A program made the position numbers and the translations under genes. This document shows positions 1 through 6,239 of a DNA stretch of 6,239 nucleotides, piece by piece. The DNA is from a virus. Taxonomy: Duplodnaviria; Heunggongvirae; Uroviricota; Caudoviricetes. The notes under the pieces are model-generated. The model searched no databases. It had not been told where the DNA came from and saw only the letters and a list, made by a program, of their open reading frames with translations. Position 1 is the first letter of the stretch. Each line of letters opens with the position of its first letter. Location of the stretch: IMG/VR virus record IMGVR_UViG_2706794664_000014; one strand, given 5' to 3'.

Positions 1-664
1 CTGTGTTGTTCTGAGGTGAGCATATCACCTCTGTTCAGGTGGCCAAATTCAGTGTGCCACTTCACTTAGCAGCACCTAAGCAACAATTGACTAACAGATT
101 CGGTAGAGTCTATCTCATAGGTCAACTTCATAAACTCAGAGCTAAGTTACCTTGAAAGATTCTACCAAGAACTACACAGGTGTTATTTAGTCTGACTGTG
201 AAGGGATATTTAACGGGAGAAGAGATACGATATAACCCGAAGGGAGAGTATCATCTTAACAATTATCTTAAGAATAAAAACTGAAAAACTCTTAACAGAT
301 AACCACCTAGAAAGAAGGGAACGATAAGACCAGAGGTAGTGACCTGTTAAACAGGCTGTTTCAAAGTCTCTTAAATAAGTAAGGTCATGTGAACAATCTT
401 ACCATTTTGTCAATGCTTTTGTCTTTGACCTAAATCAATAAAATGTATCGTTTGATATGCTTTTAAACAAAATAGCTAAAAAATCTTTTTTTAGAGGGGC
501 GCTTCGCTTGGGGTCACTATGAATGATTTTTCTCTCGCTAAGAGAGCGCTTACAGAGGTCTTTCAAATCTCAATAGCCAGCCGAGGAACACAGGAAACCG
601 AGGGAAGAAAAACTATTGTGATTACCTTGAACAAGGTCTGTAAAGGTCGTTTAAGAGGTCGGTT

Positions 665-856
665 NNNNNNNNNNNNNNNNNNNNNNNNNNNNNNNNNNNN
701 NNNNNNNNNNNNNNNNNNNNNNNNNNNNNNNNNNNNNNNNNNNNNNNNNNNNNNNNNNNNNNNNNNNNNNNNNNNNNNNNNNNNNNNNNNNNNNNNNNNN
801 NNNNNNNNNNNNNNNNNNNNNNNNNNNNNNNNNNNNNNNNNNNNNNNNNNNNNNNN
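665..856. other. Run of 192 N (unresolved or masked sequence)
   Basis: Directly visible N-run; nothing inside can be annotated. Six-frame ORFs crossing it (poly-X translations) are artefacts. Confidence 1.
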
Positions 857-939: not shown

Positions 940-1016
940 AAGACACCCCTGTACCATAGACTTCTATCTGTCATCTCGTGCAGGGGTTTTGAAGGAGTTT
1001 AACGGGGGTCTGTGTG
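940..1016 (+). repeat. Degenerate or partly deleted copy of the intergenic inverted-arm element (hairpin plus right-arm remnant)
   Basis: 997-1016 gtttaac-gggggtctgtgtg matches the right arm of copy 1 (gtttaac...gaagaggtctgtgtg) with about 21 nt missing. 10-mer ggtctgtgtg is shared between 1007-1016 and 1282-1291. The acccctg motif (945-951) recurs in the spacer of copy 2 (tacccctg, about 2902-2909). 7-bp stem acccctg/caggggt at 945-951 and 981-987. Confidence 0.35.
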
Positions 1017-1175
1017 GTCGTTATCCTTAAGGTCAAGCGTCCATGTACGACCGAACAGTTTAAAGACAACAAGCACTCTGACGAGGACGTAGCGAAGTAG
1101 CAGGCCTGCAATCAGCCCAATACCTCCACCAGTCCATACATCAGGTGACCCCAGCTCAGGAGGGAGATTTACCAT
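999..1175 (-). CDS. Hypothetical small membrane protein (58 aa, one predicted hydrophobic helix)
   Basis: Only open frame in this GC-richer island. Minus-strand ATG at 1175-1173 preceded by AAGGA with a 6-nt spacer. Translation MVNLPPELGSPDVWTGGGIGLIAGLLLRYVLVRVLVVFKLFGRTW... contains a transmembrane-like stretch. The 110-aa form from 1331 would run across the conserved intergenic repeat, so the short form is preferred. Coding status unproven. Confidence 0.3.
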   Translation of the reverse strand: MVNLPPELGSPDVWTGGGIGLIAGLLLRYVLVRVLVVFKLFGRTWTLDLKDNDHTDPR

Positions 1176-1189
1176 TAGTTTTCCTTGTA

Positions 1190-1287
1190 AGACGCTCTCA
1201 ATCGCATTCTGACACAAAAAGTACCTGACCTTATGAGTTGACCTGAAGAGGTCGTTTAACTCGTTACAGGGCGATTGAAGAGGTCTG
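1190..1287 (+). repeat. Intergenic inverted-arm element, copy 1 (left arm 1190-1221, variable centre 1222-1253, right arm 1254-1287)
   Basis: Left arm agacgctctcaatcgcattctgacacaaaaag matches 2831-2862 at 30/32. Right arm gtttaactcgttacagggcgattgaagaggtctg matches 2918-2951 at 31/34. The arms are inverted relative to each other (ctcaatcgc versus gcgattgag; terminal cagac/gtctg). Internal direct repeat gaagaggtc at 1245-1253 and 1277-1285. Confidence 0.7.
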
Positions 1288-1346
1288 TGTGCAATGCAAA
1301 ATATGCGACCAAATACATAGCCACGCCTCATATTTTACTCTCCCCA

Positions 1347-1606
1347 NNNNNNNNNNNNNNNNNNNNNNNNNNNNNNNNNNNNNNNNNNNNNNNNNNNNNN
1401 NNNNNNNNNNNNNNNNNNNNNNNNNNNNNNNNNNNNNNNNNNNNNNNNNNNNNNNNNNNNNNNNNNNNNNNNNNNNNNNNNNNNNNNNNNNNNNNNNNNN
1501 NNNNNNNNNNNNNNNNNNNNNNNNNNNNNNNNNNNNNNNNNNNNNNNNNNNNNNNNNNNNNNNNNNNNNNNNNNNNNNNNNNNNNNNNNNNNNNNNNNNN
1601 NNNNNN
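1347..1606. other. Run of 260 N (unresolved or masked sequence)
   Basis: Directly visible N-run; it hides the 5' part and start codon of the gene ending at 2039. Confidence 1.
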
Positions 1607-1607
1607 G

Positions 1608-2039
1608 AACATTGAAGCGGTCATTCGTAGCATTACGCCACGAGACAGATTTATGCCAGTACGCAAAACAACAAAGAATACTATTAAAAATTATCTGGCT
1701 AACTTTGACAGTTACGAGCAGTTACCAAGCAAGCTTGATGATGTTTTTATTGGGTTCTGTAGAAGTGAAGGCCACCCGAAATACAACAAAAAACTATTTT
1801 ATCTGCTAAAGAATCTTGACGAAATTAACGCATCCACCGTGACAAATCATCTTCAGCGACAGGCAACCAGACTTAGTTACGAATTACCAAGCGATAAATA
1901 TTGCGCTTTGCTTGCTGTGATGTGCGCGAAATTAATTGGCATTGTTGAACATCATATTGCCGTTGGGAATATTGAGCCAATGGAAAACGAGCAACCAGAT
2001 TTCGAGTTTGACCCCTATTTAGTTACAGAGGATTTTTAA
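1608..2039 (+). CDS. Hypothetical protein, 5'-truncated by the N-run (visible C-terminal 143 aa)
   Basis: Open frame from the first resolved codon (1608) to TAA at 2037-2039. Stop is immediately followed by the ATG of the next gene (translational coupling). Start lies in or before the gap; candidate starts TTG 1275 and GTG 1289 sit just after the GAGGTCTG motif but frame continuity across the gap cannot be verified. No recognisable family. Confidence 0.55.
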   Translation, partial: NIEAVIRSITPRDRFMPVRKTTKNTIKNYLANFDSYEQLPSKLDDVFIGFCRSEGHPKYNKKLFYLLKNLDEINASTVTNHLQRQATRLSYELPSDKYCALLAVMCAKLIGIVEHHIAVGNIEPMENEQPDFEFDPYLVTEDF

Positions 2040-2318
2040 ATGAATAAACACACATTAACCAGAGTTACAAAGACAGCCTTTGATGAACTGAACCGAATCA
2101 AAAACATTACAGGTCTGCCACACTCAGCAGTGATGAAGCTTGCAATTAACCGTGATATTAACGAACAGGATTTGCTTAATAGTCGCTTAGAGGCTGCAAG
2201 ACACCATATCAGGATTAAGCAAGATGACCTTGATAGTCTGAAATCCTTAAATGCTTTTGGACTGGATTTAGCAAGGTTACTAAGTATCAAAATTCACAAA
2301 CTGTCTCAGGAGGTCTGA
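2040..2318 (+). CDS. Small DNA-binding-like protein, possible ribbon-helix-helix (Arc/MetJ/CopG-type) regulator, 92 aa
   Basis: ATG 2040 directly after the upstream stop; SD AGAGGA at 2027-2032 with 7-nt spacer. N-terminus TLTRVTKTAFDELNRIKNITGLPHSAVMKLAINR fits a beta-strand / helix / turn / helix pattern typical of RHH folds. Pattern-based only, no search run. Confidence 0.5.
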   Translation: MNKHTLTRVTKTAFDELNRIKNITGLPHSAVMKLAINRDINEQDLLNSRLEAARHHIRIKQDDLDSLKSLNAFGLDLARLLSIKIHKLSQEV

Positions 2319-2320
2319 TT

Positions 2321-2593
2321 ATGAAGCAATGGCGAGATGATATTAAACGGTTCTTTGCAACTTACTTCATGATTAATTATGAGACAGGAATGCTTGAATG
2401 GATTGATGGTGGAGAGGTTAAGACAAGAGATGATGCTTACGGTAATCCAATGATTCGTTATGGCACTCGTGATTATTATCTGAAGTATGTCATCTGGTTT
2501 TTGCATCATGAAGTTCAGGCAACTAAAAAGATTATCTTCAGGGATGGTAATAAAAGAAATTGCCACCCAAACAATTTACTCCTGGAGATTTAA
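2321..2593 (+). CDS. HNH-like small protein (90 aa) with a divergent HNH_3-type C-terminal motif
   Basis: SD AGGAGG at 2308-2313, 7-nt spacer, ATG 2321. C-terminus YLKYVIWFLHHEV...KKIIFRDGNKRNCHPNNLLLEI resembles the DGNK-x-NN...NL signature of phage HNH_3 homing endonucleases as I recall it, but the His usually preceding DG is replaced by F-R, so catalytic competence is uncertain. Confidence 0.5.
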   Translation: MKQWRDDIKRFFATYFMINYETGMLEWIDGGEVKTRDDAYGNPMIRYGTRDYYLKYVIWFLHHEVQATKKIIFRDGNKRNCHPNNLLLEI

Positions 2594-2793
2594 TGTTATG
2601 TATTAAATTCGAATATTTGACAGATAAAATGATTAAGCATGTATCAGACCTGCTCATCAAAGAAGGTGGTTTCGGTGATGCTTGCAATCCAAAAGATATC
2701 TTCATTCATGCCACCAGCCCAAACGCAACACTAAAGACAGCAGTTACAGCGGAATGGTTTGAACGAAATAAAGCGGAATTAGGTTATTGGTAG
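2593..2793 (+). CDS. Hypothetical small protein (66 aa)
   Basis: ATG 2593-2595 overlaps the upstream TAA (TAATG coupling); GGAG at 2584-2587 with 5-nt spacer; open to TAG at 2791-2793. The six-frame track starts this ORF at 2560, but the RBS supports 2593. Confidence 0.45.
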   Translation: MLCIKFEYLTDKMIKHVSDLLIKEGGFGDACNPKDIFIHATSPNATLKTAVTAEWFERNKAELGYW

Positions 2794-2830
2794 TCCGAGA
2801 CTTTAAGAGAAATTAGAAAAACAGCTTATC

Positions 2831-2951
2831 AGACGCTCTCAATCGCATTCTAACGCAAAAAACTATCTTATTTTAGGGTGGGTAATACCACTGTACAGGC
2901 TACCCCTGAAAAAGACTGTTTAGCTCGTTACAGAGCGATTGAGGAGGTCTG
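2831..2951 (+). repeat. Intergenic inverted-arm element, copy 2 (left arm 2831-2862, variable centre 2863-2917, right arm 2918-2951)
   Basis: Arms near-identical to copy 1 while the centre differs in sequence and length (55 versus 32 nt). As RNA the arms could pair into a roughly 17-bp imperfect stem (cagacgctctcaatcgc with gcgattgaggaggtctg) plus a further taacg/cgtta extension. Confidence 0.7.
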
Positions 2952-2971: not shown

Positions 2972-3295
2972 ATGAACGAATATGAATTACAGATTTTCAT
3001 TGATAGCGACACTGCTATGATGGTGCAGGCTTTCGCTGATTCCGGTGTATCAATTGACCTTGATAAATTACTAAAGCTAATGGCTGAAAACTCAGAAGAA
3101 ATTGAAGACTTTATTCAGGAAATTGAAACTGGTGAACCGCGTTTTATGTTTCCTGTTACCGACTCAAACATGAAGCGTCTTATTATCGAAGAAACGAACA
3201 AATACAGCGTTAGCCCTGAAAAATATCTCAAGGCGGCTATAGCAATTTTGTATAGCGATAATATTCTGGTGACGGATTCGAAGGTGGTGCATTAA
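2972..3295 (+). CDS. Hypothetical acidic small protein (107 aa, about 21 Asp/Glu versus about 10 Lys/Arg)
   Basis: ATG 2972 preceded by AAGGAG at 2958-2963 (spacer about 8 nt). The track start TTG 2939 lies inside the repeat arm and is probably not used. Open to TAA at 3293-3295. No recognisable family. Confidence 0.6.
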   Translation: MNEYELQIFIDSDTAMMVQAFADSGVSIDLDKLLKLMAENSEEIEDFIQEIETGEPRFMFPVTDSNMKRLIIEETNKYSVSPEKYLKAAIAILYSDNILVTDSKVVH

Positions 3296-3384: not shown

Positions 3385-3413
3385 TTGACAAACAACCTTG
3401 AGCATGACATAAT
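3385..3413 (+). promoter_or_regulatory. Sigma70-type promoter: -35 TTGACA (3385-3390), 17-bp spacer, extended -10 TGaCATAAT (3405-3413)
   Basis: Consensus -35 hexamer, optimal 17-bp spacing, -10 CATAAT preceded by TGn, AT-rich upstream region. Predicted start around 3420. Confidence 0.5.
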
Positions 3414-3425
3414 TGTATATATGGG

Positions 3426-3450
3426 GGAGAGCAATTCTCTCTTATTTTTT
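3426..3450 (+). promoter_or_regulatory. Promoter-proximal hairpin plus U-tract (GGAGAG-caatt-CTCTCT then tatttttt)
   Basis: 6-bp stem with one G-U pair, 5-nt loop and a T-run, about +6 to +30 from the predicted start. Candidate pause or attenuation element. Confidence 0.3.
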
Positions 3451-3582
3451 CTTTCAATAATCCGATGGATGGATATTCTGAGTTGGAAAGGTGCAATGCT
3501 TTTCGTCCTAGCCTTTCAGGTTGGTCTGAGAGGCTATCTCAAAAAGTCTTTGTTCATTCATTATTGAATCCTTTACAGCTTT

Positions 3583-3610
3583 GCCCTAATCATGAGTTAG
3601 GGCTTTCTTT
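3583..3610 (+). terminator. Candidate intrinsic terminator (stem gccctaa / ttagggc, 7-nt loop, tttcttt)
   Basis: 7-bp perfect stem at 3583-3589 and 3597-3603, followed by a T-rich tract at 3604-3610, about 190 nt downstream of the predicted start. Confidence 0.45.
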
Positions 3611-3680: not shown

Positions 3681-3717
3681 AAGCCCTTCACAGATTATGT
3701 TTAGGGCTTTTCTTAAT
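3681..3717 (+). terminator. Second terminator-like hairpin (aagccct ... agggctt then ttcttaat), related to the first
   Basis: Shares ttagggcttt(t)ctt with the 3583-3610 hairpin; 7-bp stem with a 15-nt loop. Also overlaps a long-range inverted repeat, ttaatagagcatc (3712-3724) with ggtgctctattaa (3769-3781). Confidence 0.3.
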
Positions 3718-3810
3718 AGAGCATCTTTAATAAATCGTTAAGTCATCTTCTAAGTGTATTGGCGTTGAAGGTGCTCTATTAAGAAATAACCACACTTAGA
3801 GGAAATTATA

Positions 3811-4521
3811 ATGACAAACGATTTATATATTAACGGTAAAAAGGTTGATAGCTTCGGAGACTGGTCACCACAGGGTGAACATCCGCTACATACTATTCAG
3901 CGTCAAGAGCATGACAAGCGCATTGAGCTTGAGCAAGAGCTAAAGATGTCACCAAAGGTAATTTCCTTTGTGTCTCCTGAGCCTCAAGAAATGCCTGATA
4001 TCTGCAAAACTGAAGCACTATTTGAGCTTGAGCGTGAATATTACCCAGCTTTAAAATCACAGCGTCTTAGACTTGATGTCGCTTACGATGCTGTTAAGAA
4101 CTTCGAAGAAACCTCGAAACCTTCAGAATATGATATTGCTTACGAGATTAAGTCAAACCCGTTTATCTATTATGAAGGAAACTTTAATGATGGTTTTGGT
4201 ACAGCGATTGAAGACGTTCCTAAAGTTCTTCAAAGTATCCCTGAAGGGTTCCGGTTAATTGATGTCAGACAAGCATTAAGGGGTTCTGGTCAATTTATTC
4301 TGATGACTGATAAAACAGATGAAGAGATTCTTCAGTTAGCTGAAGCTAATTTGACTAAGCATTATTCCGGTAAACTGGATAAGTTAAAGCAAAAGCTTAA
4401 AAAAGAACTTGATACTATGAAAGAACTTGTTAGTGAATATGAGTCGCAGAAGAAGATTGCTTTGATGGCTGATATTGAGCAGTTAACGAAGATTTCTCAG
4501 AAGTATAGCAAGGCTGTTTGA
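3811..4521 (+). CDS. Hypothetical protein (236 aa) with a coiled-coil-like, Lys/Glu-rich C-terminus
   Basis: ATG 3811 preceded by GAGGA with 7-nt spacer; long uninterrupted frame to TGA at 4519-4521. No recognisable family. Sits upstream of the tape-measure-like gene, so a tail-module role is possible but unsupported. Confidence 0.7.
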   Translation: MTNDLYINGKKVDSFGDWSPQGEHPLHTIQRQEHDKRIELEQELKMSPKVISFVSPEPQEMPDICKTEALFELEREYYPALKSQRLRLDVAYDAVKNFEETSKPSEYDIAYEIKSNPFIYYEGNFNDGFGTAIEDVPKVLQSIPEGFRLIDVRQALRGSGQFILMTDKTDEEILQLAEANLTKHYSGKLDKLKQKLKKELDTMKELVSEYESQKKIALMADIEQLTKISQKYSKAV

Positions 4522-4543
4522 TTATGAATTAAAGAGGTGATTA

Positions 4544-4753
4544 ATGTTTGAAGAACGTTTAGAGACTATTCGGTCTGTTTGTGAAAACTTAAAGTTACAA
4601 ACTAAGCCAGCCTTAAGAATTAAAAACAAACGTCAAGTTATCACCTCACACAAACCAAAAACACGCAAGATTCCAAAGTGGTGTATTGACCGTATTCCTT
4701 CTGATGCTCAAATCATAGGTGAAACGGAATTACATTATCTTGTCCGACATTAA
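4544..4753 (+). CDS. Hypothetical small basic protein (69 aa)
   Basis: ATG 4544 preceded by AAGAGGTGA; the 12-mer ttaaagaggtga (4529-4540) recurs exactly at 4889-4900 upstream of the next gene. Lys/Arg-rich. TAA at 4751-4753. Confidence 0.55.
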   Translation: MFEERLETIRSVCENLKLQTKPALRIKNKRQVITSHKPKTRKIPKWCIDRIPSDAQIIGETELHYLVRH

Positions 4754-4777
4754 AAAAGAATTGGTTGGGTAAATACG

Positions 4778-4819
4778 GGGAGAGATTATCGAGTGACATC
4801 GGTAGCTCTCCCTTTTTTT
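4778..4819 (+). terminator. Rho-independent terminator (stem gggagag / ctctccc, loop about 21 nt, then ttttttt)
   Basis: 7-bp GC-rich stem at 4778-4784 and 4806-4812 immediately followed by a T7 run at 4813-4819, 25 nt after the stop of the upstream gene. Confidence 0.6.
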
Positions 4820-4909: not shown

Positions 4910-6187
4910 ATGGCACAATTTAAAGTTGATGATTTTCTGATTGAGTTAAGTTTTAACTCTCAGAAAGTTTTAAAAGGCTTGGAAAAAGCCGAGAAACAAA
5001 CGATGCAGGTAGCATCACGAATTGAGAAGCGATTGAATAAGTCGTTTAGAGTTAATCCTACGCCTTTAAATGATTCTCTCAAACTAATGGAAAGAAATGT
5101 CGATAAAACTGTTTCCAAGATTGAGCAGCGTCTTAAAAACACTAGAGCGTTTAAGATTAAAACTGAAATTGAGGATACTTTAAAGCCACTTAGACAACCA
5201 AGACAGCCACGAATTAGCGGAAGCAGAGCAATCACAGCAGCTTACTCAGCGAATATGAGCAAGCTTCGTGACTTTAATCCTATGCTTGAGAAGTATTTTA
5301 AAAGCCAGTATTACAGCTTAAGCAGTAAATCCAAGACACTTGGAAACGAAACTTTTAATCGTGAGTTAGCAAAGTTAAATCAGTCTCTTCGTGAAACACT
5401 TTCTAAGTTTAACAAGACCACCAGCAAAAATAATCACAGTGAAAATGCTTCAAATAGTCTGGATGTATTAGCTACGAGTGCAATCAAAGCAGGTACAGCC
5501 ATTTATAGTTTTCAGACAGCCTTAGAAGCTTACAGGCGGATTATGGAGGTTGGTCTGAAAAAAGAAGCATCACAACGAGCGGCACAATTCGTTTTAGGTG
5601 ATGAAGGTGCTAAACGAGCTACAGAATTTGTTAAGAATCTTGCTGATAGTAGTGGTGTAGACCAGATTGAAACATTAAGCAGTTTTGCTAAGTTTTCCGC
5701 TGGTGCTGGTGATATGAATGCAGACCAGAAAGAATCCTTATTTTCTAATGTGATTGGTACATCCAGATTAATGGGGCTAAGCACCGATGAAATTAACGGG
5801 ATTTTAAAAGCTTTCGAGCAGATGGCATCTAAAGGAAAGATTCAGGCTGAAGAGCTACGCGGTCAATTAGGTGACAGAATGGCAGGTGCTTTTCAGTTAT
5901 TTGCCAGAAGTCTTGGGATGACTACGGAAGAATTAGACAAGGCCATGAAAGACGGTAAGATTCTTTCTAAAGATGTTCTTCCTAAAGTATCCGCTGAAAT
6001 GGGAAGGATGATTGATAAAGCTGGTGGATGGGAAAAGATTATTAACTCTACTCAGACGCAGTTAGGCCGCTTAAGTAATTCATGGAATAATAATCTGGCC
6101 TTAATGTTCGATGGTTCACAGGAAGGTTTAACAGACTTTACAAGGTCACTGACTAATTTACTTAATTCACTAAATAGCTGCGCTTAA
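4910..6187 (+). CDS. Phage tail tape-measure-like protein, N-terminal portion (425 aa)
   Basis: SD GAGG at 4894-4897, ATG 4910. N-terminus MAQFKVDDFLIELSFNSQKVLKGLEKAEK follows the pattern of the lambda gpH N-terminus as I recall it. Residues about 300-370 (GILKAFEQMASKGKIQAEELRGQLGDRMAGAFQLFARSLGMTTEELDKAMKDGKILSKDVLPKVSAEM) match the conserved tape-measure domain motif from memory. Low-complexity coiled-coil stretch between. Needs HMM confirmation. Confidence 0.7.
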   Translation: MAQFKVDDFLIELSFNSQKVLKGLEKAEKQTMQVASRIEKRLNKSFRVNPTPLNDSLKLMERNVDKTVSKIEQRLKNTRAFKIKTEIEDTLKPLRQPRQPRISGSRAITAAYSANMSKLRDFNPMLEKYFKSQYYSLSSKSKTLGNETFNRELAKLNQSLRETLSKFNKTTSKNNHSENASNSLDVLATSAIKAGTAIYSFQTALEAYRRIMEVGLKKEASQRAAQFVLGDEGAKRATEFVKNLADSSGVDQIETLSSFAKFSAGAGDMNADQKESLFSNVIGTSRLMGLSTDEINGILKAFEQMASKGKIQAEELRGQLGDRMAGAFQLFARSLGMTTEELDKAMKDGKILSKDVLPKVSAEMGRMIDKAGGWEKIINSTQTQLGRLSNSWNNNLALMFDGSQEGLTDFTRSLTNLLNSLNSCA

Positions 6188-6204
6188 TACCGCTACACTT
6201 TTGC

Positions 6205-6235
6205 CAGCCCATGTTTGCCTCCGGGGAATGGGCTG
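6205..6235 (+). other. GC-rich hairpin (cagcccat / atgggctg, 8-bp stem, 15-nt loop) 18 nt after the stop codon
   Basis: Perfect 8-bp inverted repeat at 6205-6212 and 6228-6235. Local GC is about 60% against about 38% for the window. Window ends before any T-tract could be seen. Confidence 0.4.
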
Positions 6236-6239
6236 ACGG

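What the first reader, a model, noticed from the sequence alone, without database searches (positions are those of the whole stretch)
1608..2793. Tightly coupled four-gene module (hypothetical, RHH-like, HNH-like, small protein) enclosed by the repeat elements
Stop and start codons abut or overlap at every junction (TAA then ATG at 2039/2040; TGA then ATG two bases later at 2318/2321; TAATG at 2593), indicating one translationally coupled operon. A small RHH-type DNA-binding protein directly upstream of a small nuclease-like protein resembles antitoxin-toxin or regulator-effector layouts, and the module sits between two copies of the inverted-arm element as if it were a cassette. Function is unknown; a compact accessory, defence or anti-defence module of phage origin is possible.
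Basis: partly seen in the sequence, partly recalled or inferred. Interest (0 to 1): 0.6.

Follow-up and report, generated by a model that had tools for sequence, protein, structure and literature searches.

The report
Control operon of satellite-like island
The four tightly packed genes are real, but they are not a toxin-antitoxin pair: they are the front-end operon of an apparently undescribed 11-kb mobile island that looks like a parasite of Felix-O1-type phages, and the 'HNH' gene is an optional, catalytically dead remnant of a homing endonuclease.

Summary
Four same-strand ORFs abut or overlap exactly as described, and all are under purifying selection (dN/dS 0.04-0.3). ORF1 really starts at about 1482, inside an N-masked stretch.

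The window is an IS-truncated Shigella sonnei copy of a ~11-kb integrative island found in E. coli, Salmonella, Citrobacter and E. albertii. The island carries:
- a large serine recombinase;
- copies of the tape-measure protein and the next baseplate (Dit-like) gene of virulent Ounavirinae (Felix-O1-like) phages;
- pieces of those phages' large non-coding region.

This layout parallels Vibrio PLE satellites.

Only ORF1 and the 92-aa protein are constant. The slot after them is variable: the 66-aa gene alone, HNH before it, a different HNH after it, or an unrelated HTH protein.

The window's HNH_3-like protein:
- aligns to I-HmuI but lacks Asp74 and His75 and ends before Asn96;
- has no DNA-binding extension;
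- is present in about a quarter of islands and is often frameshifted or deleted elsewhere.

So an RHH-antitoxin/HNH-toxin pairing is not supported. The RHH assignment is plausible for the N-terminal half (CopG-like, 61% probability) but unproven. Function is inferred, not shown.

The parts
1482..2039 (+). ORF1, 185 aa, first gene of the operon. Conserved core gene of unknown fold. Bases 1482-1606 are N-masked in the window.
   Evidence: P0061 is 100% identical over the readable 143 aa. Present in every island examined, though interrupted by a stop codon in L010. dN/dS 0.12-0.24. No Pfam, NCBIfam, PADLOC or PDB hit. The AlphaFold model is all-helical but low confidence, pLDDT 46.
2040..2318 (+). 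92-aa RHH-like protein, second conserved core gene. It looks like two strand-helix-helix repeats in one chain.
   Evidence: The N-terminal half matches CopG (PDB 1B01) in register: hhalign probability 61%, P=8e-5, best of 30 column shuffles 17.8 against an observed score of 23.3. The internal repeat is weak, E=0.014. The AlphaFold model has pLDDT 47. Two allelic types are about 58% nt identical, but the putative strand residues HTLTR and HIRI are conserved.
2321..2593 (+). 90-aa HNH_3-family protein. An optional gene, catalytically degenerate: I72/F73 stand in place of I-HmuI Asp74/His75, and the chain ends before the Asn96 equivalent. It has no AP2 or other DNA-binding extension.
   Evidence: family profile against I-HmuI 1U3E, E=5.9e-4. 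Absent from or relocated in many islands. 96-99% nt identity in all 67 E. coli genomes that carry it. Degraded variants exist.
2593..2793 (+). 66-aa protein of unknown function, the commonest occupant of the variable slot.
   Evidence: dN/dS 0.12-0.32. No family hit.
1184..1290 (.). Palindromic repeat element, copy 1. It lies between the divergent promoters and the small hydrophobic ORF on the minus strand, so it would fall in that gene's 5' leader.
   Evidence: D2, D3. Folding z=-2.7 and -2.8 on the two strands. The whole ~100 nt is precisely absent in Citrobacter L007.
2825..2951 (.). Palindromic repeat element, copy 2. It is the downstream conserved anchor of the variable slot.
   Evidence: The long hairpin gives -50.7 kcal/mol, z=-6.5. 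Nearly invariant after either the 66-aa gene or HNH'. A beta-type variant with compensating arm changes occurs in Citrobacter and as a third inverted copy in L002. Island-specific and not genome-wide: found in 398 of 5426 genomes, median one place per genome.
1348..1606 (.). N-masked stretch. In relatives it holds the divergent sigma-70 promoters, the flanking 11-bp-phased TGTTAA motifs, and the first 42 codons of ORF1.
   Evidence: L002 5680-5745. The region is nearly invariant across 13 islands.
999..1175 (-). 58-aa small hydrophobic protein, divergently transcribed from the operon.
   Evidence: (annotated in L001). The minus-strand promoter and terminator were seen in L002.
297..404 (.). 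Block of the island's non-coding region that is homologous to the single large non-coding region of Ounavirinae phages.
   Evidence: About 70-74% identity to phages CHB7, BPS17L1 and mistaenkt.
4910..6187 (+). Tape-measure gene of the island, cut off at codon 425 by IS630. This is context that identifies the island.

Best explanation
SHOWN. Positions 1482-2793 are a translationally coupled operon of a compact (~11 kb) integrative island. The island recurs, with the same gene order, at different chromosomal sites in E. coli/Shigella, Salmonella, Citrobacter and E. albertii.

The operon has two parts:
- A constant pair: ORF1 (185 aa) and the 92-aa RHH-like protein.
- A variable slot, bounded by the conserved 3' end of the RHH-like gene and, in all but the type-D islands (L010, L015), by palindromic element copy 2. 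Small genes are exchanged in this slot.

The window's HNH_3-like gene is one such optional insert. It is a homing-endonuclease relative that has lost its catalytic Asp and His, its C-terminal Asn helix and any DNA-binding extension.

INFERRED.
1. The island is a satellite or parasite of virulent Felix-O1-like (Ounavirinae) myophages, functionally analogous to Vibrio PLEs. It supplies its own tape-measure and baseplate-hub proteins and carries helper-like cis sequences.
2. The ORF1/RHH-like pair is the island's DNA-binding control module. The RHH-like protein most likely acts, like CopG, as an autorepressor of the almost invariant divergent promoter. That promoter is flanked by 11-bp-phased TGTTAA motifs, and the same motif forms iteron-like arrays in the helper's control region, which could link island expression or replication to infection.
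3. The dead HNH protein, which is still under purifying selection where intact, is either a recently spread selfish remnant or a domesticated DNA-binding accessory of the CapR kind. It is not a nuclease toxin.
For: Operon and coupling. Purifying selection.

Island structure and spread:
-.
- Integration sites include yecE (DUF72), yciI-tonB and others.
- The large serine recombinases are only 28-35% identical between islands.

Helper link:
- The Dit-like protein is 70% identical to the gene that follows the tape-measure gene in 299 mostly Ounavirinae phage records.
- The tape-measure N-terminus is 77% identical over 47 aa.
- Non-coding blocks of 100-300 nt are 60-75% identical to the phages' large non-coding region.
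- No capsid, terminase or replication gene appears in any copy.

Variable slot:
-.
- Identity jumps to 97-100% from the HNH start to the end of element copy 2 in islands whose RHH alleles are about 58% identical.
- The insertion junction is precise.

HNH degeneracy:
-.
- Decayed alleles.
- Counts of 67 genomes (HNH) against 267 (ORF1).

RHH.

Promoter and motif:
-.
- TGTTAA occurs 21 times in the 1735-nt phage non-coding region, against 2.2 expected, in 11-bp phase.

Precedents in PLEs:
- Own TAC, TMP and baseplate hub giving chimeric tails (PMC12987554).
- An ORF-less ori region, an sRNA region, a small TM protein and the HNH/N nickase NixI (PMC9410903).
- The domesticated endonuclease CapR (PMC8096241).
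Against: - There is no experimental or sequence evidence of excision, replication or packaging. An 11-kb contig turned out to be an integrated copy, not a circle.
- No island protein other than the tape-measure and Dit-like proteins resembles a phage protein.
- ORF1 and the RHH-like protein have no significant family or structure match. Both AlphaFold models are unreliable, with pLDDT 46-47.
- Which protein binds the TGTTAA motifs is unknown.
- In the window itself the promoter is masked, and TTAACA is not enriched (8 sites against 5.6 expected).
- The S. sonnei copy is IS-truncated on both sides, so it is probably not a functional island.
- The purifying-selection signal on the HNH gene rests on only 7-9 substitutions.
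Confidence: 0.55

Rival explanations
1. The RHH-like protein is an antitoxin or dedicated regulator, and the HNH-like protein is its nuclease toxin or effector.
For: The two genes are adjacent and translationally coupled. The protein belongs to the HNH_3 family. The PLE nuclease NixI is toxic when expressed (PMC9410903).
Against: - The RHH-like gene is present without the HNH gene in most islands: ORF1 is in 267 genomes and HNH in 67 (loci).
- In other islands the HNH paralogue sits after the 66-aa gene.
- The catalytic Asp, His and Asn are absent.
- Frameshifted and deleted HNH alleles coexist with intact RHH genes.
- There are no PADLOC hits.
Confidence: 0.04
2. The HNH-like protein is still an active site-specific nickase or homing endonuclease. 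It would be NixI-like and aimed at helper DNA, or would drive its own spread, using non-canonical catalytic residues.
For: - Presence/absence polymorphism at a precise intergenic site, and near-identical sequence in diverged islands, behave like homing.
- dN/dS is 0.04-0.11.
- The paralogue HNH' keeps the His and a C-terminal Asn.
- NixI is a precedent.
Against: - I72 and F73 replace I-HmuI D74 and H75.
- The chain ends four residues after the conserved NL, before the Asn96 helix.
- There is no AP2 or NUMOD DNA-binding domain, unlike the full-length HNH_3-AP2 enzymes of the phage (gp63) and of Citrobacter island L006.
Confidence: 0.1
3. The region is an inert remnant of a decayed prophage, and the four genes are leftover early genes with no present role.
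For: - The window copy is flanked by IS911 and IS630, and its tape-measure gene is truncated.
- ORF1 is a pseudogene in L010.
- PGAP annotates mostly hypothetical proteins.
Against: - The same 11-kb gene set, with intact ORFs, occurs at different integration sites, with different integrases, in four genera.
- dN/dS is well below 1 for all genes tested.
- The promoter region is nearly invariant.
- No larger parent prophage with these genes was found in 50,697 phage records.
Confidence: 0.1
4. The island is a defence element and not a transmissible satellite. Its tape-measure and Dit-like copies would poison helper tail assembly, and the operon merely regulates this.
For: Helper-like tape-measure and Dit-like genes. 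Tail-assembly interference is a known defence strategy (PMC11364771; Rta in PMC12987554). A variable cargo region with small serine recombinases or a Dam methylase lies at the left end.
Against: - The helper-like non-coding region and iteron-type motifs suggest use of helper replication or packaging functions.
- In PLE11 the satellite tape-measure and hub proteins serve satellite virion assembly.
- The two readings are not mutually exclusive.
Confidence: 0.25
5. ORF1 and the RHH-like protein form a reverse-order toxin-antitoxin or abortive-infection pair, with ORF1 as the toxin.
For: They are the invariant, abutting pair. RHH domains are common in antitoxins (general knowledge).
Against: ORF1 matches no toxin family in Pfam, NCBIfam or PADLOC. 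ORF1 is a pseudogene in L010 while the RHH gene is intact, which is the opposite of what addiction logic forbids but gives no positive support.
Confidence: 0.07

Closest known systems
[quoted passage not shown]
   Same: - A compact island integrated by a large serine recombinase.
- Almost all proteins are hypothetical.
- A large ORF-less region, a smaller ORF-less region with a likely small RNA, and a small membrane protein.
- Its own tape-measure and baseplate-hub genes next to each other.
- An HNH-type small gene.
(PMC6002521, PMC9410903, PMC12987554, compared.)
   Different: - I did not test for sequence homology to PLE genes.
- The host is Enterobacteriaceae and the presumed helper is Ounavirinae.
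- The island is smaller: about 11 kb, against about 18 kb for PLEs by my own recollection.
- No RepA_N or other replication initiator is recognisable.
- The tape-measure and hub proteins are much closer to the helper's (77% and 70% locally) than in PLE11 (20% and 41%).
- Helper dependence is not shown.
PLE NixI and I-HmuI-type HNH/N nicking endonucleases (Pfam HNH_3)
   Same: The family profile aligns to I-HmuI 1U3E residues 17-94 (E=5.9e-4). It is a small stand-alone gene in a satellite-like island.
   Different: The window protein lacks the Asp74, His75 and Asn96 equivalents and the DNA-binding C-terminal domains. NixI requires its catalytic Asn.
PLE CapR, a repressor derived from a homing-endonuclease domain
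   Same: A nuclease-family protein without nuclease chemistry, carried by a satellite whose helper is rich in homing endonucleases (PMC8096241). The phage mistaenkt carries several HNH and GIY-YIG genes.
   Different: By my own recollection, CapR derives from a different endonuclease family. DNA binding by the window protein is untested. The gene is optional here.
Free-standing homing endonuclease genes of phages
   Same: Precise intergenic insertion, presence/absence polymorphism, near-identity across diverged backgrounds, and location at a boundary of genetic exchange (concept in PMC10448857).
   Different: It is catalytically degenerate, and two unrelated insertion positions are used by two paralogues.
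CopG/Arc-type ribbon-helix-helix autorepressors (and single-chain tandem RHH proteins such as F TraY, from my own knowledge)
   Same: The N-terminal 8-37 aligns in register with CopG 8-37. There is a Gly-Leu turn between the helices. It is a small protein encoded in the operon that it may regulate.
   Different: Below the significance usually required. The second repeat is unsupported. There is no structural confirmation.

Membership tests
HNH (beta-beta-alpha-Me) nuclease, I-HmuI / Pfam HNH_3 type | Sequence membership of the family | tested here: met
   Alone, Pfam HNH_3 gives E=7.5e-5 and 22.7 bits against a cut-off of 24.8. Relatives found by exhaustive HMMER score above the cut-off. The family profile hits I-HmuI 1U3E at E=5.9e-4.
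HNH (beta-beta-alpha-Me) nuclease, I-HmuI / Pfam HNH_3 type | General-base histidine (I-HmuI His75) and the adjacent metal-ligand Asp74 | tested here: not met
   The window has I72-F73-R-D-G-N where I-HmuI, phage gp63 and L006 have D-H-x-D-G-(N/D). The residue roles come from my own knowledge of Shen et al. 2004.
HNH (beta-beta-alpha-Me) nuclease, I-HmuI / Pfam HNH_3 type | C-terminal helix with the catalytic, metal-binding Asn (I-HmuI Asn96, NixI N95) | tested here: not met
   The protein ends at residue 90, four residues after the conserved N85-L86. The Asn96 equivalent would be residue 94. The importance of this Asn is described in PMC9410903.
HNH (beta-beta-alpha-Me) nuclease, I-HmuI / Pfam HNH_3 type | Nuclease fold in a predicted or solved structure | not tested
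Ribbon-helix-helix (Arc/MetJ/CopG) superfamily | Strand-helix-helix motif detectable by sequence | tested here: inconclusive
   N-terminal half against CopG 1B01: hhalign probability 61%, P=8e-5, in register. No RHH Pfam family is hit; the only Pfam hit is DndE at E=0.027. PDB profile searches were negative.
Ribbon-helix-helix (Arc/MetJ/CopG) superfamily | RHH fold in a structure model | tested here: inconclusive
   AlphaFold pLDDT 47. The helices at 11-24/28-36 and 61-70/77-90 fit two helix-helix units, but the model is unreliable.
Type II toxin-antitoxin pair | Toxin and antitoxin genes co-occur as a conserved pair | tested here: not met
   The RHH-like gene occurs without HNH, with HNH in another position, or with other genes. 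Counts are 67 genomes against 267.
Type II toxin-antitoxin pair | Toxicity of one partner, neutralised by the other | not testable with these tools
   This needs expression assays.
Phage satellite (PLE-like, helper = virulent myophage) | Integrative island with its own integrase, lacking capsid, terminase and replication-machinery genes | tested here: met
Phage satellite (PLE-like, helper = virulent myophage) | Specific sequence links to a helper phage (structural genes or cis sites) | tested here: met
   The tape-measure and Dit-like proteins. Non-coding homology and shared 11-bp-phased TTAACA motifs.
Phage satellite (PLE-like, helper = virulent myophage) | Helper-induced excision, replication and packaging, and interference with the helper | not testable with these tools
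   No circular or virion-derived form was found. The 11-kb contig L022 is an integrated copy.
Phage satellite (PLE-like, helper = virulent myophage) | Homology to PLE genes (true family membership) | not tested
Only an analogy is claimed.
Free-standing homing endonuclease gene | Precise presence/absence polymorphism and horizontal spread between diverged hosts | tested here: met
Free-standing homing endonuclease gene | Catalytically competent enzyme | tested here: not met
   See the HNH rows above.
MITE / genome-wide intergenic repeat (considered for the flanking elements) | Many dispersed copies per genome outside one element | tested here: not met
   Found in 398 of 5426 genomes, median one place per genome, all chromosomal and island-associated.

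The most novel reading that the evidence does not exclude
The island is a previously undescribed family of satellites of virulent Felix-O1-like (Ounavirinae) phages in Enterobacteriaceae, convergent with Vibrio PLEs. On this reading:
- The ORF1/RHH-like operon is its infection-coupled control module, wired through the same 11-bp-phased TTAACA iterons that fill the helper's control region.
- The slot behind it is an arms-race locus.
- In that slot, homing-endonuclease genes captured from the helper are domesticated into catalytically dead DNA binders that act on helper DNA.
Probability: 0.3. Interest if true: 0.8.

Novelty: new variant of a known kind. Interest (0 to 1): 0.6.

Why it matters
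PLEs of Vibrio cholerae are the best-studied satellites of a strictly lytic phage, and PLE-like elements have so far been reported only from vibrios (PMC9410903). An analogous island in E. coli, Shigella, Salmonella and Citrobacter, apparently aimed at Felix-O1-like phages, would matter for three reasons.
- Those phages are used for Salmonella typing and are candidates for biocontrol and therapy. The island could explain strain-specific resistance to them.
- It would give a genetically tractable second system for satellite-encoded tail proteins.
- It would show how endonuclease genes are recycled in phage-satellite conflicts.

For the narrow finding, the value is corrective. The RHH-plus-HNH neighbourhood is not a toxin-antitoxin system.

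Tried and rejected
- **Rfam.** Nothing in the window at E<=1.
- **PADLOC.** No hit for any island protein.
- **Phage records.** Nothing from megablast or from tblastn with the HNH-like protein. The module therefore has no counterpart in 50,697 phage records.
- **PDB sequence and profile searches** for ORF1 and the RHH-like protein, full length and N-terminal half. Only noise.
- **AlphaFold2** of the RHH-like protein (23-sequence alignment) and of ORF1 (29 sequences). pLDDT was 47 and 46, too low for any fold search, so the three fold-search jobs were not used.
- **Internal-repeat test** of the RHH-like protein. Right register but E=0.014, probability 3%.
- **MITE hypothesis** for the flanking palindromes. 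Rejected, because they are island-specific.
- **RNA covariation** on element copy 2. Only two sequence types were available and alignment of a palindrome is unreliable, so it was inconclusive.
- **Search for an excised or circular island.** The 11,146-nt contig L022 has no terminal overlap and ends in tonB flanks.
- **Literature.** Nine searches found no description of this island. One paper noted unexplained recombination between a virulent E. coli myophage's tape-measure gene and E. coli chromosomal loci that PHASTER did not call prophage (PMC11069274). That may be the same island; I did not check.
- **Island proteins against phage mistaenkt.** Only the tape-measure and Dit-like proteins match the whole genome.
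Full report
**1. Observation**

Reading the window directly, four plus-strand ORFs are packed as the finding says.
- ORF1 stops at TAA 2037-2039, and the next ATG is at 2040.
- That gene stops at TGA 2316-2318, and the next ATG is at 2321.
- That gene stops at TAA 2591-2593, overlapping ATG 2593.
- Each start is preceded by a GGAG/AGGA motif.

Two stretches of the window are masked with N (665-856 and 1348-1606). ORF1 is therefore only partly visible. Its readable 143 residues are 100% identical to a 185-aa Shigella sonnei protein (P0061), which puts the true start near 1482.

Two lines of evidence show these are genuine genes. The same abutting or overlapping junctions recur in every related locus I fetched. 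Pairwise dN/dS for all four genes is 0.04-0.3.

The two flanking repeat copies are real, at 1184-1290 and 2825-2951.

**2. What the surrounding DNA is**

The window ends are insertion sequences. Positions 1-64 are an IS911 end, and positions from about 6155 to 6239 are an IS630 end that truncates a tape-measure gene at codon 425.

Complete E. coli genomes hold colinear relatives at 85-90% identity. In strain H2 the element (~11.2 kb) splits the DUF72 gene yecE. In strain A0 34/86 it lies between yciI and tonB.

The gene order is the same in both strains:
- a variable left end (a small serine recombinase or a Dam methylase);
- 1-2 kb without ORFs;
- a small hydrophobic ORF on the minus strand;
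- ORF1, the RHH-like gene, (HNH), and the 66-aa gene;
- a 107-aa gene;
- about 0.5 kb without ORFs;
- a 236-aa gene and a 69-aa gene;
- the tape-measure gene (TMP_3) and a Dit-like 'baseplate' gene;
- a large serine recombinase on the minus strand.

The same island occurs in other genera:
- Salmonella, also in yecE;
- Citrobacter, at other sites and in one case with a tyrosine integrase;
- E. albertii;
- IMG/VR and metagenome contigs.

ORF1 DNA is found in 267 of 5426 complete E. coli genomes.

**3. Link to a virulent phage group**

- The Dit-like protein is 60-80% identical to the gene that immediately follows the tape-measure gene in 299 phage records. These are mostly Ounavirinae (Felixounavirus, Suspvirus and relatives) of Escherichia, Salmonella, Shigella, Citrobacter and Erwinia.
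- Against Escherichia phage mistaenkt, the island's tape-measure protein is 77% identical over the first 47 residues and about 35% elsewhere.
- No other island protein matches anything in the 86.7-kb phage genome.
- The island's ORF-less left region shares blocks of 100-300 nt, at 60-75% identity, with the one large (~1.7 kb) non-coding region of these phages. In the window these are at 97-121 and 297-404; relatives hold more.
- That phage region is packed with TTAACA/TGTTAA motifs in 11-bp phase: 21 sites in 1735 nt against 2.2 expected.

**4. Comparison with PLE satellites**

An island with the following features is very like the PLE satellites of Vibrio cholerae:
- an integrase;
- no capsid, terminase or replication genes;
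- its own copies of the helper's tape-measure and hub genes;
- helper-like cis sequences.

PLEs use a large serine recombinase (PMC6002521). They have an ORF-less ori region, a small-RNA region, a small membrane protein and the HNH/N nickase NixI (PMC9410903). They were recently shown to encode their own chaperone, tape-measure and baseplate-hub proteins, which build chimeric tails (PMC12987554).

I claim analogy only. I did not test homology to PLE genes, and helper dependence cannot be tested here. Nine literature searches found no description of this enterobacterial island. One paper noted unexplained recombination between a virulent coliphage's tape-measure gene and E. coli loci that were not called prophage (PMC11069274).

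**5. Anatomy of the module across islands**

ORF1 and the RHH-like gene are always present and always abut. What follows them varies.

| Type | Order after ORF1 and the RHH-like gene | Loci |
|---|---|---|
| A | HNH, then 66-aa | window, L001, L002, L004/5, L014 |
| B | 66-aa only | Citrobacter L006/L007, L016, L019-21 |
| C | 66-aa, then a different HNH paralogue (95 aa, about 40% identical) | L011-13, L022 |
| D | an unrelated 128-aa protein with a weak C-terminal HTH | L010 (similarly L015) |

Other observations on the slot:
- A sliding comparison shows that the RHH-like gene exists as two alleles only about 58% identical in DNA.
- By contrast, the segment from the HNH start codon to the end of repeat copy 2 is 97-100% identical in islands from S. 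sonnei, E. coli and Salmonella.
- The empty site in Citrobacter shows a precise insertion that re-creates the Shine-Dalgarno/stop/start arrangement on both sides.
- Repeat copy 2 and the 40 nt before it are nearly invariant whether the preceding gene is the 66-aa gene or HNH'.

So the cassette-like unit is the slot behind the RHH-like gene, not the four-gene block.

**6. The HNH-like protein**

Evidence for family membership:
- On its own it falls just below Pfam's HNH_3 threshold.
- An exhaustive HMMER search found 18 relatives. Nine of the ten distant relatives I scanned are bona fide HNH_3 proteins.
- A profile of the family aligns to the solved homing endonuclease I-HmuI (1U3E) at E=5.9e-4.

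Evidence for catalytic degeneracy, from that alignment and from comparison with full-length HNH_3-AP2 enzymes of the phage (gp63) and of a Citrobacter island:
- The window protein has Ile72-Phe73 where the enzymes have Asp-His (I-HmuI Asp74 and His75).
- It terminates four residues after the conserved Asn-Leu, before the helix that carries the catalytic Asn (I-HmuI Asn96; NixI N95).
- It has no AP2 or other DNA-binding extension.
- The assignment of roles to these residues rests on my knowledge of the I-HmuI structure paper and on PMC9410903.

Evidence on distribution and decay:
- The gene is in 67 of 5426 E. coli genomes, always at 96-99% identity.
- Other strains carry frameshifted copies, copies fused by deletion to the 66-aa gene or to the 128-aa gene, and truncated copies.
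- Where intact, it shows 6 synonymous against 1-3 non-synonymous codon changes. That hints at retained function but rests on few substitutions.

Conclusion: it is a homing-endonuclease-derived gene that is very unlikely to cut DNA. It is either a young selfish remnant or a domesticated binder of the CapR kind (PMC8096241). The type-C paralogue keeps the His and a terminal Asn and may still be active.

**7. The RHH-like protein and ORF1**

No curated family or PDB sequence is matched significantly. Both AlphaFold models are unreliable, with pLDDT 47 and 46, so I ran no fold searches.

For the RHH-like protein:
- A profile of its N-terminal half aligns in exact register with CopG. I checked my recalled CopG sequence against PDB 1B01.
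- That alignment gives hhalign probability 61% and P=8e-5, above 30 column-shuffled controls.
- The second half has the same strand-helix-Gly-helix pattern but no statistical support.
- The residues that would form the DNA-reading strands (HTLTR, HIRI) are conserved across the two divergent alleles.

ORF1 is predicted to be helical with an acidic C-terminal tail. Its fold is unknown.

**8. Promoter and a mechanistic lead**

In relatives, the region masked in the window holds the following:
- a near-consensus promoter (TTGACA, 17 nt, TGcTAGTAT) for the operon;
- an overlapping divergent promoter that would transcribe through repeat copy 1 into the small hydrophobic gene.

This ~150-nt region is more conserved than any coding sequence across 13 islands. 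It is flanked by two TGTTAA motifs 11 bp apart upstream and by inverted copies downstream. This is the same motif and phase as the arrays in the helper's control region.

My inference is that a DNA-binding protein recognising these motifs couples the operon to infection or autoregulates it. That protein could be the island's RHH-like protein or ORF1, or a helper protein. This is unproven, and in the window itself the motif is not enriched.

**9. The flanking repeats**

- Each is a long imperfect palindrome. Copy 2 folds at -50.7 kcal/mol, z=-6.5.
- An alpha type and a beta type differ by compensating changes in the arms.
- They are island-specific, not a genome-wide MITE.
- Copy 1 is cleanly absent from Citrobacter islands.
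- Their role is open. Possibilities are an RNA processing or stability hairpin, a protein-binding dyad, or a recombination anchor.
- Because copy 2 on the operon strand is complementary to the leader of the divergently transcribed hydrophobic gene (which carries copy 1), antisense coupling is conceivable but untested.

**10. Verdict**

The toxin-antitoxin or regulator-effector pairing, and the four-gene cassette, are not supported.

The module is best read as the control operon of a PLE-like, apparently undescribed satellite-type island of Ounavirinae phages, followed by an accessory slot. I put confidence at about 0.55 for the whole picture. It is higher for the comparative facts and lower for the mechanism.

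Noticed in passing
window 1-64 and about 6155-6239: The window is bounded by an IS911 end on the left (100% identical to IS911 in phage Sf6) and an IS630 end on the right. The IS630 end truncates the tape-measure gene at codon 425. The S. sonnei copy of the island is therefore degraded on both sides.
   Followed up: partly
window 665-856 and 1348-1606: Two N-masked stretches. In relative L002 the first corresponds to a pair of ~55-nt direct repeats (L002 about 5040-5190). The second corresponds to the divergent promoters plus the first 42 codons of ORF1.
   Followed up: partly
window 97-121 and 297-404; L001 3230-3535; L002 3950-4030 and 4566-4683: Island non-coding DNA is 60-75% identical (96% over the 25-nt stretch at 97-121) to the single large non-coding region of Ounavirinae phages (CHB7, BPS17L1, mistaenkt). 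That phage region holds dense 11-bp-phased TTAACA arrays, so it may be an origin, a packaging region or a regulatory region.
   Followed up: partly
window 3385-3603: A near-consensus sigma-70 promoter (TTGACA, 17 nt, CATAAT, with TG) at 3385-3413 is followed by two terminator-like hairpins at 3421-3445 and 3583-3603, inside a 515-nt ORF-less gap. The arrangement is conserved in L002 (7713-7928). It looks like a small-RNA gene or an attenuator. There is no Rfam match.
   Followed up: no
window 3709-3786: A 22-nt inverted repeat (91% complementary, 34-nt loop) lies just upstream of the 236-aa gene that starts at 3811.
   Followed up: no
window 999-1175 (minus strand): A 58-aa protein with one hydrophobic segment (GGGIGLIAGLLLRYVLVRVLVVF) is transcribed divergently from the operon, with a long structured leader that contains repeat copy 1. 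It resembles either a type I toxin or a LidI-like small membrane protein of PLEs. Repeat copy 2 on the opposite strand is complementary to that leader.
   Followed up: partly
window 2972-3295: The C-terminal part of the 107-aa protein (PRFMFPVTDSNMKRLIIEETNKYSVSPEKYLKAAIAIL) also has a strand-helix-helix (RHH-like) pattern. This was judged by eye only.
   Followed up: no
window 3811-4753 and 4777-4819: The 236-aa and 69-aa genes sit where the helper phage has its two tape-measure chaperone genes, but they show no sequence similarity to them. PGAP calls the 236-aa protein 'transposase' in some genomes, with no Pfam support. A hairpin (GGGGAGAG...CTCTCCC) followed by a run of seven T comes after the 69-aa gene, so the tape-measure and Dit-like genes may have their own promoter.
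   Followed up: no
L022 1-60 and 11100-11146; L002 about 2723-2746 and about 13890: For the tonB-site islands, both junctions share CAATGACCCTTGA, which overlaps the tonB start codon. This is probably the core of the recombinase attachment site.
   Followed up: partly
L002 3193-3768; L001 4189-4857; L006 3813-8273; L019 1-7716: The left end of the island is variable cargo. It holds small serine recombinases, a Dam-type methylase, a full-length HNH_3-AP2 endonuclease, and in L006 and L019 a tyrosine integrase. L006 has no large serine recombinase after its Dit-like gene. L019 also shows unrelated phage tail genes there (Phage_Wedge1, Gp53-like_C, Caudo_TAP).
   Followed up: no
L002 4140-4285 (minus strand): A third, inverted copy of the palindromic element is present. 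It is of the beta type, which otherwise occupies the copy-2 position in Citrobacter islands.
   Followed up: partly
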